Below are positions 19,099 through 63,972 of a stretch of 64,000 nt of DNA, piece after piece (position 1 is the first letter of the stretch; each line of letters starts with the position of its first letter). Position numbers and translations under genes: made by a program. Below the pieces are notes generated by a model. It was not told the DNA's origin. It did no database searches and was given only the letters and a program-made list of their open reading frames with translations. Source of the stretch: a virus (taxonomy: Duplodnaviria; Heunggongvirae; Uroviricota; Caudoviricetes); the IMG/VR virus record IMGVR_UViG_3300048672_000524, positions 1-64,000 of that record; one strand, 5' to 3'.

Positions 19099-19851
19099 TT
19101 AGGCAGCTGCCTTGGCTTCAGCCTTGGCCTTCTTTGCAGCGCCGTCATAGTCGGCAACCTTGATGCCACGACGGGTTAGAAGAGTCTTAATACCGCGTTC
19201 GGTCTTATCAGCGGCCTTAGCAATATCGGCTACAGACATGGTAGCAAGCTTATCACCTAGGCTAGCAACTACGTCTACTATAGCAGTAGCGTGGCTTTCT
19301 TTTTGCGCAGGAATCTTATCAATCTGACCGTTACGGGTTAGTGATAGAGCCTTACCACGTACTGAGGCAATTGACTTACCTAGAGCAGCGGCAATTTCTT
19401 CGATGAACTTACCGGCTGAAACCATGCTTACAAACTTGGTTTCTTCTTCAGGGGTATAAGTACGGGCTACTTCTACCTTTTCAGCAGGCTTAACGCTAGC
19501 GGTTAGTTCTAGAGCTAGAAGCTTACCTTGGATTTGCTTGGCACTAAATGCACCGGCTTCGAATTGCTCAGCAATATCCTTGTAGGTTAGTGTACCTGCA
19601 TTTGCGGCCACGAATGATGCAAGAGCTTCACCTTGTTCAGGAGTAAACGCTGAGGTCTTTTCCTTAGCTAGTGAGGCTACTTGATGGTCTAGCTGACGTA
19701 ACTTTGAAGCTACTGAACGTGTACTTACTTCTAGCTTAGTAGCAGCTTCTTCAACGGTAGCGGCTGATACAGGGCTCTCAGTACCTACGATTGATAGTAG
19801 GGTGGCAACTGCTTCGTCTGACCACTTCTTGGCCTTGGTTGTTTCTGTCAT
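19099..19851 (-). CDS. protein with four tandem sigma-region-4-like HTH repeats
   Basis: four repeats of xIAxxxxxSxxSVxxKLxxxG(V/I) motif shared with the small paralogs at 24665, 56945, 58630, 60048, 63604. Confidence 0.5.
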   Translation of the reverse strand: MTETTKAKKWSDEAVATLLSIVGTESPVSAATVEEAATKLEVSTRSVASKLRQLDHQVASLAKEKTSAFTPEQGEALASFVAANAGTLTYKDIAEQFEAGAFSAKQIQGKLLALELTASVKPAEKVEVARTYTPEEETKFVSMVSAGKFIEEIAAALGKSIASVRGKALSLTRNGQIDKIPAQKESHATAIVDVVASLGDKLATMSVADIAKAADKTERGIKTLLTRRGIKVADYDGAAKKAKAEAKAAA

Positions 19852-20618
19852 GTGTTTTCTTTCAAAAAGGTTGTTAGATTGTTAACAATAATTACGCCGT
19901 ATTCTTCAGCTTTTTTACGCTTTGAACTACCATTATTCTGCTCATCGACCAAGTATTTTAGAGTTTTTGTTACTGATTCGACAACAGTAAAGCCAGCTTC
20001 TGTTAATTTAGTTGTAGCTTCAGCTTTCGTCTTAAACGATGATAGCTTACCAGTAATACAAATAGTTGGCCCATTTGTACTAGAAGTAACTTTACTTTGT
20101 GACTTGAAAGAGAACGGCAAGAACTCTTTCATTTCCAAATATTCTGTATCTAACCAATTAAGTAAATTGGCAGTTACTTTTTCTCCGAGACCTGCTTCTT
20201 GACAGGTCACTAGATTAATTTCATCAATATGGCTGACTACAGCAGCAATTTTACTAGATGCTGTGTTACCAACTAATGGAATTGAGAAAGATGCTAGAAC
20301 TGTTGCTAGGTCTGCACCTTTGGCTCTTTCAATTTCATCTAACAGCTTAACTGCTGTTTTTTCGCTACCTAGTGCATCTTTAACAGAATCTACATCTAGA
20401 TAAAAGAGTTCAGTTAGATCGGATAGACCTAACTTTTCTATTGTTTTAGGGCCAAAACCTTTAATGCTAAGAGTCTTCGCCAGATGCTCTAGCTTTTTAT
20501 TTAGCTGTGCGCTACATGCTGTATTGCGACAAAAAAGTTGATCTTTAACCAACTCTAATTTGTAACCACAGCATGGGCAGTCCACCGGAATTTCGATATT
20601 CATGAGACGCTTTATCAA
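19848..20618 (-). CDS. ligB: NAD-dependent DNA ligase, C-terminal subunit (Zn finger, HhH, BRCT)
   Basis: CPCCG..C..C zinc finger, HhH repeats, BRCT-like tail; split ligase arrangement as in T5. Confidence 0.75.
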   Translation of the reverse strand: MIKRLMNIEIPVDCPCCGYKLELVKDQLFCRNTACSAQLNKKLEHLAKTLSIKGFGPKTIEKLGLSDLTELFYLDVDSVKDALGSEKTAVKLLDEIERAKGADLATVLASFSIPLVGNTASSKIAAVVSHIDEINLVTCQEAGLGEKVTANLLNWLDTEYLEMKEFLPFSFKSQSKVTSSTNGPTICITGKLSSFKTKAEATTKLTEAGFTVVESVTKTLKYLVDEQNNGSSKRKKAEEYGVIIVNNLTTFLKENT

Positions 20619-20677
20619 CTTAAGGATAAATTATAACCTAAAAGGAGTACAGTAGCAAGTACAAATTTTTGTACCTA

Positions 20678-20887
20678 CTATAGGGAATGACTCTTATCGG
20701 CCTTTTCTTTTAGTTGGTTATAAATATGCTCTGCTAATTTAACGTATGGGCCTAGCCAAGAGTGCCGTATACCTGTACTATCTAGTTCTTTTTGGGCATT
20801 TTTAATGCCAGCTAATACTAGCTTTGCATCTGCTGCTAGAAAATCTTCTGGAGTGGCGGTAATTGCCCAGTCCGATAGTTTACTCAT
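20678..20887 (-). CDS. hypothetical small protein between ligase halves
   Basis: ORF track. Confidence 0.3.
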   Translation of the reverse strand: MSKLSDWAITATPEDFLAADAKLVLAGIKNAQKELDSTGIRHSWLGPYVKLAEHIYNQLKEKADKSHSL

Positions 20888-21837
20888 TATTCTACCTTAT
20901 GAACGATTTGGGGAATAATTTCACCACTTCTTCTGATAGCTACTCTATCCCCAATTCGTAAGTCTAGAGCTTGTATGAATCCAGGATTATTCAAAGTAGC
21001 TCTGGAAACTAGAGCATCGCCGACCAAAACCGGTTCAAGGTTCGCGACGGGGGTAACTTTACCCGACTTACCAACTTGCCACTCCACTGATAGAAGTGTG
21101 GTTTCCACAAGCTCCGAACGTTCTTTCTTAGCGTAGGCCCCACGAGGATGTTTGGAAGTAAATCCAAGTTCGTCAAACCGTGCATTACTATTTACTCTGA
21201 ATACAACACCATCAGTCGGGAAGATTTCTAAAAGATTAGGGTCTTGAACGGTATTAAAACCTACACCGCTTAGCCAAGCCATATCTAGATCAAAAGTATC
21301 GTATTGATTGGGCCATACACCATAAGCGAAGAACTCAACACTACGAGTCTTAAATTCTTCGACACTTCCCAGGTTTAACGCGCCAGCGGCGTAATTACGG
21401 GAATTTTCGATAGTTTTAGGAGCTACTACTTCACCAACAACCTGTACAAATCCCTTAATTGGAATTTCTTTAGGAATCATATTAGTAGCAGCAAACTTAT
21501 CAGTAATATCTCGGCCTTCAATACCATCACCACGGGTAAGCGACATGATGTGCTCACCTTCGTAGTATAGATGGCTAACAGCAGCGCCATCTAGTTTAGG
21601 TGACATTGTTACGTCACGTTCGCCAGCTAAAGGTGTTTCCTTCTTCTCGTCAGCATAGTACTTCTGTAAGCTGTACATACGACGATAGTGCTTTTTAACA
21701 TTTTCATGTTGAGCAGCACCAACACTGCCATAGCCAACAGCATCAGCTAAAGCATCAAACTGCTCGTCACTAATGATGGGGCTGCCAGCATAGTAGTGAC
21801 GCGCTGCGTTATTTAAGAATTCAATTACTTTACTCAT
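20887..21837 (-). CDS. ligA: NAD-dependent DNA ligase, N-terminal adenylation/OB subunit
   Basis: KxDG adenylation motif (SPKLDGAAV), NAD-ligase Ia-like N-terminus. Confidence 0.8.
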
Positions 21838-21854
21838 GCTATTATTATAGTACT

Positions 21855-22196
21855 TTAACTATCTTTTTTCAAGTCAGCAATTTTATCGCTGAAATGCTTA
21901 GATATAGAATCAATACTTTCTTCTTTACTGCAAATCTCAATAAGTCCATCTAGTAAAGCAAAGGTATTAGTAATGGAAGCGGCCATACTAATACCTTCTT
22001 TACTTGCTGTCCATTCGCCTTCATAGGATAAAAAGTATTTACGAATATGAAGATACTGAATTCCTCGGAATTCAGAAACTACCAGTCGTAACTGGTATCC
22101 TTTCTCCATATTTTCGTAAATCAGTTTATCATATAATTCATCAGACATTTTGTAGGAGAGAGTACATATACTCTGCCCTATTCTTTGATACTTCAC
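21855..22196 (-). CDS. hypothetical protein
   Basis: ORF track. Confidence 0.3.
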
Positions 22197-22316
22197 TTAC
22201 ACCAAGGAAAGAAGTCTGCGTAGGTGTAAGGAACTCGGAAGGATTAGTTCTATATTCCTTCTCCCATAGCTCAAAAGCTTGAGCTAGCTGTTCTAATGTA
22301 ATCTTCATTTCATACC

Positions 22317-63032: not shown

Positions 63033-63034
63033 TG

Positions 63035-63412
63035 TTAAATCACCATGTTGTGGTAAGTGTCAGGAGGCAAGCCGTATCTTATCATAACGCTTTGCCATTC
63101 GCCACCGTGCCAGCGATTATTTTTTGGCATACCGTACAGGTTTACGGCTACTTGATGCGCTATTTCATGGGGAATTACAACGCGCATCATTTCACCATAA
63201 TTCTCAGGCTTTGTAAAGAATTTTCTAGCCAGAACAATGCGGTTTTGTTCTACCAGATTTTTGCCAGCCGTTGCCGTCATGCGGTTAGATAGCTCCACGC
63301 TAGGGCACGCGTAGCTTGACAGCTGCGGATAAAGGCGGACAAAGCGTGCCCAGACTTCGACAAAACGCGCCTTTACCTGCGCGTCAAGGTTTACAAGGTG
63401 GTTAAATGTCAT
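63035..63412 (-). CDS. SprT-like zinc metalloprotease domain protein (second copy)
   Basis: SprT-like pattern RMTATAGK...IPHEIAHQV...HGGEW; internal start MTFNHL. Confidence 0.6.
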   Translation of the reverse strand: MTFNHLVNLDAQVKARFVEVWARFVRLYPQLSSYACPSVELSNRMTATAGKNLVEQNRIVLARKFFTKPENYGEMMRVVIPHEIAHQVAVNLYGMPKNNRWHGGEWQSVMIRYGLPPDTYHNMVI

Positions 63413-63482
63413 GCTGCCAGTATAGCATAAAATTCGACCAGTGTGCATACCCTACAAGTTACATGTTGTTACAATTAATTTG

Positions 63483-63512
63483 TTGACACCCCCTAAAATT
63501 ATATGCTATAAT
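63483..63512 (+). promoter_or_regulatory. consensus sigma70 promoter module 7 (TTGACA-18-TGcTATAAT-TTTGGCGCA)
   Basis: followed by TTGTTACAATTGGTTACAATT and bidirectional terminator 63545-63580. Confidence 0.6.
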
Positions 63513-63544
63513 TTTGGCGCAACTTTGTTACAATTGGTTACAAT

Positions 63545-63580
63545 TATCCAACAAAAAAGCCACGGAAAACCGTGGCTTTT
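63545..63580. terminator. bidirectional rho-independent terminator
   Basis: AAGCCACGG-AAAA-CCGTGGCTT flanked by A/T runs. Confidence 0.6.
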
Positions 63581-63603
63581 TCAATAGGGGTTTCCCCCTA
63601 TTG

Positions 63604-63972
63604 TTATTCGACCGAAGTATCCGCGACTGACCAGCCTTTCGGCAAGCGGTTAGCCTTGAGCATGGCCAACACCTTGACAAGCGCAGTCTTGTTCGCCTTG
63701 GTCAGCGAGTCAATTTCACCCTCGCTCAGGCCAGCCAACTTGCCGATTTCATCGGCAGTTTCATCCTTCTTGACCGGCACCGTGCCTGCCTTGGTCTTGT
63801 ATTCCTTCGCCTTATACACCCCTTCGCGGGACAGCTTAGCGATGATGCTTCGCACAGTCTTTCCCATTTCAGTTGCAAGGGTTTCAACGGTCACACCGGC
63901 CGCATAGTCCGCCACCATCTTGGTGGTTTGTTCCGGGGTGTAGTTCACAGCCTTTTCAGTCTTTGCAGTCAT
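63604..63972 (-). CDS. small sigma-region-4-like HTH protein, paralog C
   Basis: MTAKTEKAVNYTPEQTTKMVADYAAGVTVETLATEMGKTVRSIIAKLSREGVYKAK; near-identical N-domain to paralog B. Confidence 0.6.
   Translation of the reverse strand: MTAKTEKAVNYTPEQTTKMVADYAAGVTVETLATEMGKTVRSIIAKLSREGVYKAKEYKTKAGTVPVKKDETADEIGKLAGLSEGEIDSLTKANKTALVKVLAMLKANRLPKGWSVADTSVE

What the first reader, a model, noticed from the sequence alone, without database searches (positions are those of the whole stretch)
19099..63972. Expanded family of sigma-region-4-like HTH proteins: three paralogs in the terminal cassette, two more singles, and one four-repeat protein
Proteins at 58630..58945, 60048..60413 and 63604..63972 are 70-90% identical over an N-terminal ~55-aa domain (VNYTPEQTTKMVADYxxGVTVExLAxExGKTVRSVIAKLSREGVYKAK). 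That domain resembles sigma70 region 4 / ECF sigma HTH: L..Y..G.S..EIA..LG.S.GTV.SRL. Related single-domain members sit at 24665..25024 and 56945..57253 (+). The 250-aa protein at 19099..19851 has four tandem copies. Paralogs B and C are each followed by the identical hairpin GCAATAGGGGTTTCCCCCTATTGC. These proteins are candidates for repressors of the TGTAACA operators or RNAP-binding appropriators.
Basis: partly seen in the sequence, partly recalled or inferred. Interest (0 to 1): 0.6.

Follow-up and report, generated by a model that had tools for sequence, protein, structure and literature searches.

The report
T5 A2/D5-type DNA-binding protein paralogs
The six small helix-turn-helix proteins are real relatives of one another, but they are this uncultivated T5-like phage's versions of the known T5 DNA-binding proteins A2, D3 and D5, with A2 multiplied to four copies, so the finding is mostly ordinary.

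The parts
19099..19851 (-). F: ortholog of T5 D5, 250 aa, with four tandem three-helix HTH modules (about residues 12-53, 71-114, 134-173, 194-227)
   Evidence: phrog_323 'D5-like' 7e-41. tblastn gives 41-48% identity over more than 90% of its length to D5 of T5-like phages in 886 records. AF2 shows four 3-helix units. The N-domain HMM gives four hits.
24665..25024 (-). D: ortholog of the T5-like 'D3 protein', 119 aa, in the same PHROG as T5 A2
   Evidence: phrog_1725 3e-22 over the full length. T5 A2 itself matches phrog_1725 at 4e-52. tblastn gives 30-36% identity to genes annotated 'putative D3 protein'. hhalign against the A2 family gives 92%, E 6e-7.
55659..56663 (+). 334-aa protein of unknown family, the conserved upstream neighbour of the E-type gene
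   Evidence: Homologs lie next to the E-type gene, on its strand, in 19 of the related loci. It has no Pfam or PHROG hit and no BLAST similarity to T5 A1.
56945..57253 (+). E: E-type A2-like paralog, 102 aa (99 aa if it starts at the ATG at 56954), convergent with the A/B/C block
   Evidence: 31-39% identity to A/B/C over the full length. phrog_1725 1.6e-6 and HTH_7 2.7e-6. Its positional orthologs carry a precomputed PF26822 Phage_T5_A2 hit. Orthologs L001/L003 are 64-68% identical.
58630..58944 (-). A: A-type A2-like paralog, 104 aa
   Evidence: phrog_1725 2.7e-7. The identical protein on a Logan contig carries PF26822 (weak). Alignment.
60048..60389 (-). B: B-type A2-like paralog, 113 aa
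   Evidence: 73% identical to C. phrog_323 4.7e-6. Equals P0028.
63604..63972 (-). C: C-type A2-like paralog, 122 aa. It has a basic three-helix HTH (13-50), a basic linker and an acidic three-helix C-terminal domain (69-107).
60018..60041 (-). Stable hairpin directly after the stop codon of B. The mRNA-strand loop is GAAA and the U-tract is weak.
63553..63604 (-). The same hairpin after the stop codon of C (63581-63604), followed by a canonical bidirectional intrinsic terminator (63553-63580)
62118..62603 (-). dNMPase (T5 dmp homolog), which marks the block as the pre-early-type region
   Evidence: T5 dmp tblastn 34% identity, 7.7e-14. PF26880 on the identical protein.
59476..63535 (+). Six consensus sigma70 promoter-palindrome modules antisense to the genes (-35 hexamers at 59498, 60646, 60724, 62690, 62758, 63483), with the TGTAACA/TGTTACA repeat pairs next to most of them. 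A seventh module at 57512, scoring 11 of 12, lies outside this range in the non-coding gap.

Best explanation
The six ORFs are this T5-like phage's members of the A2/D3/D5 superfamily of phage double-stranded-DNA-binding proteins.

The shared unit is a roughly 45-residue three-helix HTH of the GcrA-DBD / homeodomain-like type. Its third helix carries the invariant R-S-x-x-A-K-L signature and lies in the DNA major groove (inferred).

A, B, C and E each combine one basic HTH, a basic linker and an acidic three-helix C-terminal domain. That C-terminal domain more likely mediates dimerisation or partner binding than DNA contact (inferred). They are four old, selectively maintained copies of the single T5 pre-early protein A2. 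A2 is a dimeric dsDNA binder that is essential for second-step DNA transfer.

F is D5, with four HTH units on flexible linkers. [quoted passage not shown] D is the D3-type member.

Shown here: homology, architecture, fold, conserved gene order and purifying selection. Inferred from the T5 literature and from mapping onto GcrA: DNA binding. Unknown: the DNA target of each paralog and why four copies are kept.
For: Phage context:
- 22 tRNA genes (24 ARAGORN calls) and a dmp homolog.
- T5-type terminase, nicking endonuclease and dNMPase families in syntenic relatives.

Family assignment:
- F matches phrog_323 at 7e-41 and is 41-48% identical to D5.
- D matches phrog_1725 at 3e-22. T5 A2 matches the same PHROG at 4e-52. 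D's tblastn hits are annotated 'D3 protein'.
- A/B/C/E family against an alignment of 16 T5-type A2 proteins: hhalign probability 96.6%, E 6e-10, 98 aligned columns covering both domains.
- The same family against D5 repeat 3 plus its linker: 89%, E 2e-6.
- Precomputed PF26822 Phage_T5_A2 hits on orthologs and on protein A itself.

Structure:
- AF2 gives two three-helix units in C and four in F.
- A profile search of PDB sequences aligns the domain end to end with the GcrA DBD, at a non-significant E of 0.078. In that alignment the invariant R41, K46 and R49 fall on GcrA R33, K39 and R42, which contact DNA (PMC5887438).

Conservation:
- No other window ORF carries the domain.
- The layout C-type, B-type, (A-type), then a convergent E-type recurs in the IMG/VR loci that span the region.
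- dN/dS is 0.15-0.36.

Literature:
- A2 is a purified dimer that binds dsDNA, associates with A1 and is essential for second-step transfer (bioRxiv 10.1101/866236 and 10.64898/2026.04.02.716235).
- D5 is a DNA-binding protein affecting replication and late gene expression (McCorquodale 1979, cited).
Against: - No DNA binding was measured for any of these proteins.
- The alignments used for structure prediction were shallow. Mean pLDDT was 73-76 and pTM 0.34-0.40, so only the individual domains are trustworthy, not their relative arrangement.
- The direct A2 against D5 profile comparison is not significant (probability 8.8%). The superfamily link therefore runs through the A/B/C/E family as an intermediate.
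- No homolog of A1, the T5 partner of A2, was found in the window.
- E, the copy whose orthologs score best against the Pfam A2 model, sits on the opposite strand, beyond a 1.4-kb non-coding gap. It may lie outside the first-transferred DNA.
- A, D and E are acidic or neutral overall (pI 5.6-6.3).
Confidence: 0.78

Rival explanations
1. The A2-like paralogs are sequence-specific regulators of the strong antisense promoter modules in the same block. They would bind as dimers to the conserved inverted repeat of about 14 + 3 + 14 bp (GSSCCAAAATTATA nnn TATAATTTTGGCGC) that overlaps each -10 element. This would switch RNAP occupancy on the first-entering DNA.
For: - The modules and the paralogs co-occur in the same 6-kb block and in the 77 related loci, with 310 antisense against 50 sense consensus promoters.
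- The promoter spacer and the bases after the -10 are conserved and mutually palindromic, which RNAP recognition alone does not require.
- T5 A2 is a dimer.
- The recognition helix of the B/C-type proteins is nearly invariant across the clade, as is the palindrome.
Against: - This is purely correlative. No binding data exist, and no co-variation test was possible because both partners are nearly invariant.
- I know of no report that T5 A2 or D5 is sequence-specific (my own knowledge).
- The T5 terminal repeat has no such modules, yet T5 still needs A2.
Confidence: 0.15
2. One reading: the proteins are repressors that bind the TGTAACA repeats.
For: - TGTAACA occurs 21 times in the window against 11.3 expected, and 15 of these lie in 57.8-63.6 kb.
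- The repeats occur as direct pairs 9-10 bp apart, just upstream of -35 elements or just downstream of -10 elements. That spacing would suit tandem or dimeric HTH binding.
Against: - Only 27 of 308 equivalent modules in 77 related loci have the motif within 40 nt upstream. Most of those loci hold 0-2 copies per strand, and L003 has none next to any promoter module.
- Those phages nevertheless keep the same paralogs with a nearly invariant recognition helix.
Confidence: 0.08
3. One reading: the proteins are sigma-region-4 mimics that bind RNA polymerase (beta-flap or sigma) and redirect it.
For: - There are weak Pfam Sigma70_r4/r4_2 hits.
- JGI named some homologs 'sigma24 family'.
- T5 pre-early proteins were historically found in RNAP preparations.
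Against: - No Sigma70_r2 or other region-2 family appears in the Pfam scan.
- The only whole-protein score over a Sigma70_r4_2 threshold is for F. It is the sum of four sub-threshold repeats, with zero significant stretches.
- Better structural matches are all DNA-binding HTH domains.
- In T5 the RNAP-associated pre-early protein that was positively identified is A1, not A2.
Confidence: 0.05
4. The proteins are phage GcrA-type transcription activators that read adenine-methylated DNA and recruit sigma70.
For: - There are sub-threshold PF07750 hits.
- Phage proteins named GcrA appear among weak BFVD matches.
Against: - The GcrA sigma-interacting domain is a CCCH zinc finger. None of the six proteins contains a single cysteine.
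- Pfam GcrA scores are 14-18 bits against a cut-off of 26.9.
- The residue aligned with GcrA N34 is deleted.
Confidence: 0.03

Closest known systems
Bacteriophage T5 A2 protein (T5.006; Pfam PF26822 Phage_T5_A2; PHROG 1725)
   Same: Full-length profile homology (96.6%, E 6e-10). Same size class (102-135 aa). Same architecture: N-terminal HTH, then a basic linker with a K/R-x-x-H-A motif, then a C-terminal helical domain with an S-L-x-K-A-x-K-type motif. A/B/C lie in the same block as the dmp homolog.
   Different: There are four diverged copies (31-73% identical to one another) instead of one. tblastn of C finds nothing in 50,697 sequenced phage genomes. The insertion between helices 1 and 2 of T5 A2 is absent. 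No A1 homolog is detectable. All pre-early-type genes point one way, unlike the divergent T5 arrangement. The best Pfam-A2-scoring lineage (E-type) is on the opposite strand, with a different conserved neighbour.
Bacteriophage T5 D5 protein (PHROG 323, 'transcriptional regulator, D5-like')
   Same: F is a clear ortholog (41-48% identity, same length). A/B/C align to its third repeat and the following linker.
   Different: Nothing notable for F itself. The reading of D5 as four GcrA-DBD-like HTH modules, and its profile link to A2 through the A/B/C/E family, was not found in the papers searched.
Caulobacter GcrA DNA-binding domain (PDB 5YIU; PF07750)
   Different: No CCCH sigma70-interacting domain. 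Below the Pfam threshold. No evidence of methyl-adenine reading.
Sigma-70 region 4 / ECF sigma HTH
   Same: Three-helix HTH of similar size, with the sequence pattern G-x-[ST]-x-x-E-[IL]-A.
Tandem homeodomain-like DNA binders such as archaeal Cbp (PDB 2LVS), the Tc3 bipartite domain and Myb R2R3
   Same: Several small three-helix HTH units on flexible basic linkers. 2LVS is the best sequence-profile hit in the PDB (E 0.0025).
   Different: No demonstrable common descent. In A/B/C/E the second unit is acidic.

Membership tests
T5 A2 family (PF26822 / PHROG 1725) | Full-length sequence/profile homology to T5 A2 | tested here: met
   hhalign of A1 against A3: 96.6%, E 6e-10, 98 columns. phrog_1725 hits: A 2.7e-7, E 1.6e-6, B 1.2e-3, C 5.6e-3, D 3e-22. 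Precomputed PF26822 on protein A and on E-type and B-type orthologs. The local Pfam copy lacks PF26822, so no direct score was obtained.
T5 A2 family (PF26822 / PHROG 1725) | Encoded among the pre-early genes of the terminal repeat, with dmp and A1 | tested here: inconclusive
   A/B/C share a block with the dmp homolog. No A1 homolog was found by tblastn. Terminal-repeat boundaries cannot be read from one contig. D lies in the early region, and E is convergent across a 1.4-kb gap.
T5 A2 family (PF26822 / PHROG 1725) | Dimeric dsDNA-binding protein that binds A1 and is required for second-step transfer | not testable with these tools
   Known for T5 only.
T5 D5 family (PHROG 323) | Full-length homology to D5 of T5-like phages | tested here: met
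   F: phrog_323 7e-41 over residues 5-247. tblastn gives 41-48% identity in 886 records covering at least 80% of the query.
T5 D5 family (PHROG 323) | [quoted passage not shown] | not testable with these tools
   Literature only (title of McCorquodale 1979, seen).
Sigma-70 / ECF sigma factors | Region 4 domain scoring above the Pfam gathering threshold | tested here: not met
   A-E score at most 12 bits. F reaches 27.5 bits only as a whole-protein sum, with zero individually significant stretches.
Sigma-70 / ECF sigma factors | Region 2 (-10 recognition and core binding) in the same protein | tested here: not met
   No Sigma70_r2 hit in any of the six. The proteins consist only of HTH units and linkers.
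GcrA (PF07750) | N-terminal DBD fold | tested here: met
GcrA (PF07750) | Pfam gathering score | tested here: not met
   14.4-17.8 bits against a cut-off of 26.9.
GcrA (PF07750) | C-terminal CCCH zinc-finger sigma70-interacting domain | tested here: not met
   Zero cysteines in all six proteins. The feature is defined in PMC5887438.

The most novel reading that the evidence does not exclude
The multiplied A2-like proteins are the trans-acting partners of the conserved antisense promoter-palindrome-hairpin modules that fill the pre-early block of this large uncultivated T5-like clade. Together they would form an undescribed circuit. Host RNAP is captured on, or fires tiny RNAs from, the first-entering DNA. 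The A2 paralogs then bind the -10-overlapping palindromes to release or silence it, gating pre-early shut-off or second-step DNA transfer. That would give a concrete mechanism for the long-unexplained role of A2.
Probability: 0.1. Interest if true: 0.75.

Novelty: new member of a known kind. Interest (0 to 1): 0.33.

Why it matters
T5 A2 is one of only two essential pre-early proteins, and its role in second-step DNA transfer is still unknown.

This work gives a structural frame for designing A2 and D5 mutants. A2, D3 and D5 appear to be built from one GcrA-DBD-like HTH module. A2 looks like one basic HTH plus an acidic helical domain, and D5 like four HTH units.

The environmental A/B/C/E branch is large. 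It has about 2,500 cluster representatives at 50% identity and more than 4,000 clusters at 90%. It links A2 to D5 by profile comparison where the direct A2-D5 comparison fails.

The stable maintenance of three to four diverged copies suggests sub-functionalisation that a cultured member of this clade could test.

Otherwise the finding is an annotation result, not a new system.

Tried and rejected
- Megablast of 56-64 kb against 50,697 phage genomes: no match.
- tblastn of C against the same set: no match at 1e-3. The family is visible only by profiles or in metagenomes.
- phmmer of C and F against PDB sequences: nothing meaningful, only designed repeat proteins.
- Looking up the window's own contig through P0001: not on record.
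- Search for a T5 A1 homolog in the window by tblastn: none. The 266-aa metallophosphatase at 53098-53898 and the 334-aa neighbour of E show no similarity to A1.
- Direct A2 against D5 profile comparison: not significant.
- The N-domain and C-domain HMMs do not cross-hit, so an internal duplication within A/B/C/E could not be shown by sequence.
- Rfam scan of 57-64 kb: only sub-threshold chance hits.
- Idea that the conserved GGCGC after each -10 is a T5-type nick site: the three T5 major nicks examined read Pu^GCGCAGGG, while the modules read G^GCGC[AC] followed by varied bases. The resemblance is too short to support the idea.
- Idea that TGTAACA is a clade-wide operator: rejected.
- The classical A2 and D5 papers and Davison 2015 are not held in the library. 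Their content is cited second-hand.

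
Full report
**What the window is**

The window carries 22 tRNA genes among 24 ARAGORN calls in a block at 25-47 kb. It has a split NAD-dependent ligase next to the 250-aa protein and a homolog of the T5 5'-deoxynucleotidase dmp at 62118-62603 (34% identity, 7.7e-14). Syntenic relatives carry T5-type small terminase, nicking endonuclease and dNMPase Pfam families. It is therefore a T5-like phage.

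It comes from a 103,964-bp JGI metagenome contig. It has no nucleotide-level relative among 50,697 sequenced phage genomes.

**Checking the observation**

All six ORFs are present. Small corrections:
- A is 58630-58944.
- B most likely begins at the ATG at 60389.
- E may begin at 56945 or 56954.

Pairwise identity in the 48-residue N-domain is 67-83% among A, B and C. Full-length identity is 44-73%. E is 31-39% identical to them over its whole length.

A profile of the N-domain was searched against all 532 ORFs of the window. It finds A, B, C and E (from which it was built), then F (E 3.5e-12, with four separate domain hits) and D (E 0.049). Nothing else scores better than E = 1.

The hairpin after B and C is identical over 22 nt and very stable, with a GAAA loop on the mRNA strand. 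After C it is followed by a true bidirectional terminator. The same hairpin follows the equivalent gene in relatives L003/L004.

**What the proteins are**

- F is the ortholog of T5 D5 (phrog_323 7e-41; 41-48% identity to D5 genes in nearly 900 T5-like genomes).
- D is the ortholog of the gene annotated 'D3 protein' in T5-like phages. It belongs to PHROG 1725, the family of T5 A2 itself (3e-22 for D, 4e-52 for A2).
- An alignment of A, B, C, E and 27 metagenomic homologs was compared with an alignment of 16 T5-type A2 proteins. The hhalign probability is 96.6%, E 6e-10, over 98 columns. The match covers the HTH, the basic linker and the C-terminal helical domain.
- The same alignment matches the third repeat and following linker of the D5 family at E 2e-6.
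- A2 against D5 directly is not significant. The A/B/C/E branch is what links them.
- Orthologs of E and B, and protein A itself on a Logan contig, carry precomputed Pfam PF26822 'Phage_T5_A2' hits.

**Structure**

AlphaFold2 models have a mean pLDDT of 73-76. Values are 81-91 within the helical units, apart from the fourth unit of F (59-73), and low in the linkers. C shows two three-helix units (residues 13-50 and 69-107). F shows four.

The authors of the GcrA structure themselves noted that its DBD resembles sigma-4 (PMC5887438). It is not a family relationship, for three reasons:
- No Sigma70_r2 or other region-2 family appears in the Pfam scan.
- No individual Sigma70_r4 stretch is significant.
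- The GcrA sigma-binding CCCH zinc finger cannot exist, because none of the six proteins has a cysteine.

In the profile alignment to GcrA, which is not itself significant (E 0.078), the family's invariant R41, K46 and R49 fall on GcrA R33, K39 and R42. These residues contact bases or phosphates. The N-domain and linker of C are basic (pI 9.2-9.5). The C-terminal unit is acidic (pI 5.1). I therefore read the C-terminal unit as a dimerisation or partner-binding domain rather than a second DNA reader. This is an inference.

**How widespread the arrangement is**

The A/B/C/E branch has 4,371 clusters at 90% identity with E <= 1e-3 in the 5.8-billion-protein set. It has 2,489 representatives at 50% identity (982 at E <= 1e-10).

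In the 77 related IMG/VR loci fetched, those that span the region show the same order. A C-type gene comes first, then a B-type and usually an A-type on the same strand. An E-type lies on the opposite strand, next to a homolog of the 334-aa protein at 55659-56663.

The four lineages are orthologous across phages. dS between paralogs is saturated and dN/dS is 0.15-0.36. The 'expansion' is therefore an old, maintained feature of a large uncultivated clade, not a recent event in this genome.

**How it most likely works**

T5 A2 is a purified dimeric double-stranded-DNA-binding protein. It associates with A1 and is essential for second-step transfer, by an unknown mechanism. D5 is a DNA-binding protein affecting replication and late gene expression (title cited).

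By homology and by the conserved third helix, I infer that all six proteins bind duplex DNA through the HTH. Four A2-type proteins would act early on phage DNA, and perhaps on host DNA. D5 would use four modules on flexible linkers for multivalent binding. The individual targets are unknown.

**The TGTAACA and RNAP ideas**

TGTAACA is enriched: 21 copies against 11.3 expected, with 15 of them inside 57.8-63.6 kb. It occurs as direct pairs 9-10 bp apart beside promoters.

It is a lineage-specific decoration, however. Only 27 of 308 equivalent promoter modules in the 77 loci have it within 40 nt upstream, and L003 has none next to any module. The B/C-type recognition helix is nearly invariant across those same phages. 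A clade-wide TGTAACA repressor role is therefore unlikely.

Nothing supports RNAP appropriation. In T5 the pre-early protein positively identified in RNAP preparations is A1.

**Seen in passing, and stranger than the finding**

The intergenic gaps of the A/B/C block hold consensus sigma70 promoters on the strand opposite to the genes. Four score 12 of 12 (TTGACA-N18-TATAAT with an extended TG) and two score 11 of 12. A seventh, at 11 of 12, lies at 57512 in the non-coding gap.

Each is followed, within 0-50 nt of the expected transcription start, by a hairpin that can terminate that strand. The transcripts would then be only about 30-60 nt.

The spacer and the bases after the -10 are conserved and form an inverted repeat (GSSCCAAAATTATA nnn TATAATTTTGGCGC) centred just upstream of the -10.

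In the 77 related loci there are 310 such promoters antisense to the genes and 50 sense. About 200 of them carry [TA]T[TC]GGCGC after the -10, and 237 of 310 have a strong hairpin just downstream, against 98 of 310 random controls.

The T5 terminal repeat has nothing comparable, and no Rfam family matches. These palindromes are better candidate targets for the invariant HTH helices than TGTAACA, but that link is only correlative.

**Verdict**

It misses the identity with T5 A2, D3 and D5.

Novelty is modest. This is a divergent, multiplied branch of a known family, plus a structural reading of A2 and D5 as arrays of GcrA-DBD-like modules.

Noticed in passing
window 57512-57548, 59498-59535, 60646-60683, 60724-60761, 62690-62727, 62758-62795, 63483-63520 (+ strand); L003 9056-15778 (- strand); 77 IMG/VR loci L007-L083: Consensus sigma70 promoters (TTGACA-N18-TATAAT with an extended TG) sit in the gaps between the pre-early genes, on the antisense strand. 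Each has a conserved palindromic spacer/-10 region and a conserved TTTGGCGC after the -10. A hairpin-terminator follows almost at once, so the transcripts would be about 30-60 nt. In 77 related loci there are 310 antisense and 50 sense. The T5 terminal repeat has none, and no Rfam family matches.
   Followed up: partly
window 59478-59493, 59541-59571, 60634-60640, 60703-60718, 60769-60785, 62732-62748, 63467-63473, 63526-63532: TGTAACA/TGTTACA direct pairs lie 9-10 bp apart beside the antisense promoters. At 59540-59572 the motif forms a perfect 16+1+16 palindrome. The motif is enriched here but absent from most related phages, so it is lineage-specific.
   Followed up: yes
window 57254-58629: A 1.4-kb non-coding gap lies between the convergent E gene and A gene. 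It contains an 18-bp-arm perfect palindrome (57617-57652), a 68-nt direct repeat (57240-57307 and 57434-57501) and one more promoter module. Its position is analogous to the T5 injection-stop (iss) region, but the terminal-repeat boundaries could not be determined.
   Followed up: partly
window 60871-61242 and 63035-63448 (- strand): Two SprT-like zinc-metalloprotease paralogs (HExxH; PF10263 1e-7 and 3e-13) lie in the same pre-early-type block. T5 has no annotated equivalent in its terminal repeat.
   Followed up: partly
window 55659-56663 (+): A 334-aa protein with no Pfam or PHROG hit. Its homologs sit next to the E-type A2-like gene, on the same strand, in all 19 related loci where they were found. 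In L003 the two genes overlap by 4 nt. It is a possible functional counterpart of A1, but shows no sequence similarity to it.
   Followed up: partly
protein P0445, not in the window: A 599-aa metagenomic protein matches the N-terminal HTH module ten times in tandem. This extends the four-module D5 architecture.
   Followed up: no
window 25960-26398 (-): ARAGORN calls a permuted tmRNA-like gene (tag ANDSIFEVRLAA) at the edge of the tRNA block. T5 annotates several tRNA-like stable RNAs in the equivalent region.
   Followed up: no
window 17995-18711 (-): A GIY-YIG-type homing-endonuclease-like ORF (MTCGIYKLKF...YIGKS) lies just downstream of the D5 ortholog. I identified it by motif only.
   Followed up: no
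window 23993-24649 (-): The 218-aa protein immediately downstream of D has a borderline Pfam HTH_58 hit (23.5 bits against a cut-off of 23.8). The A2/D5 N-domain HMM does not detect it.
   Followed up: partly
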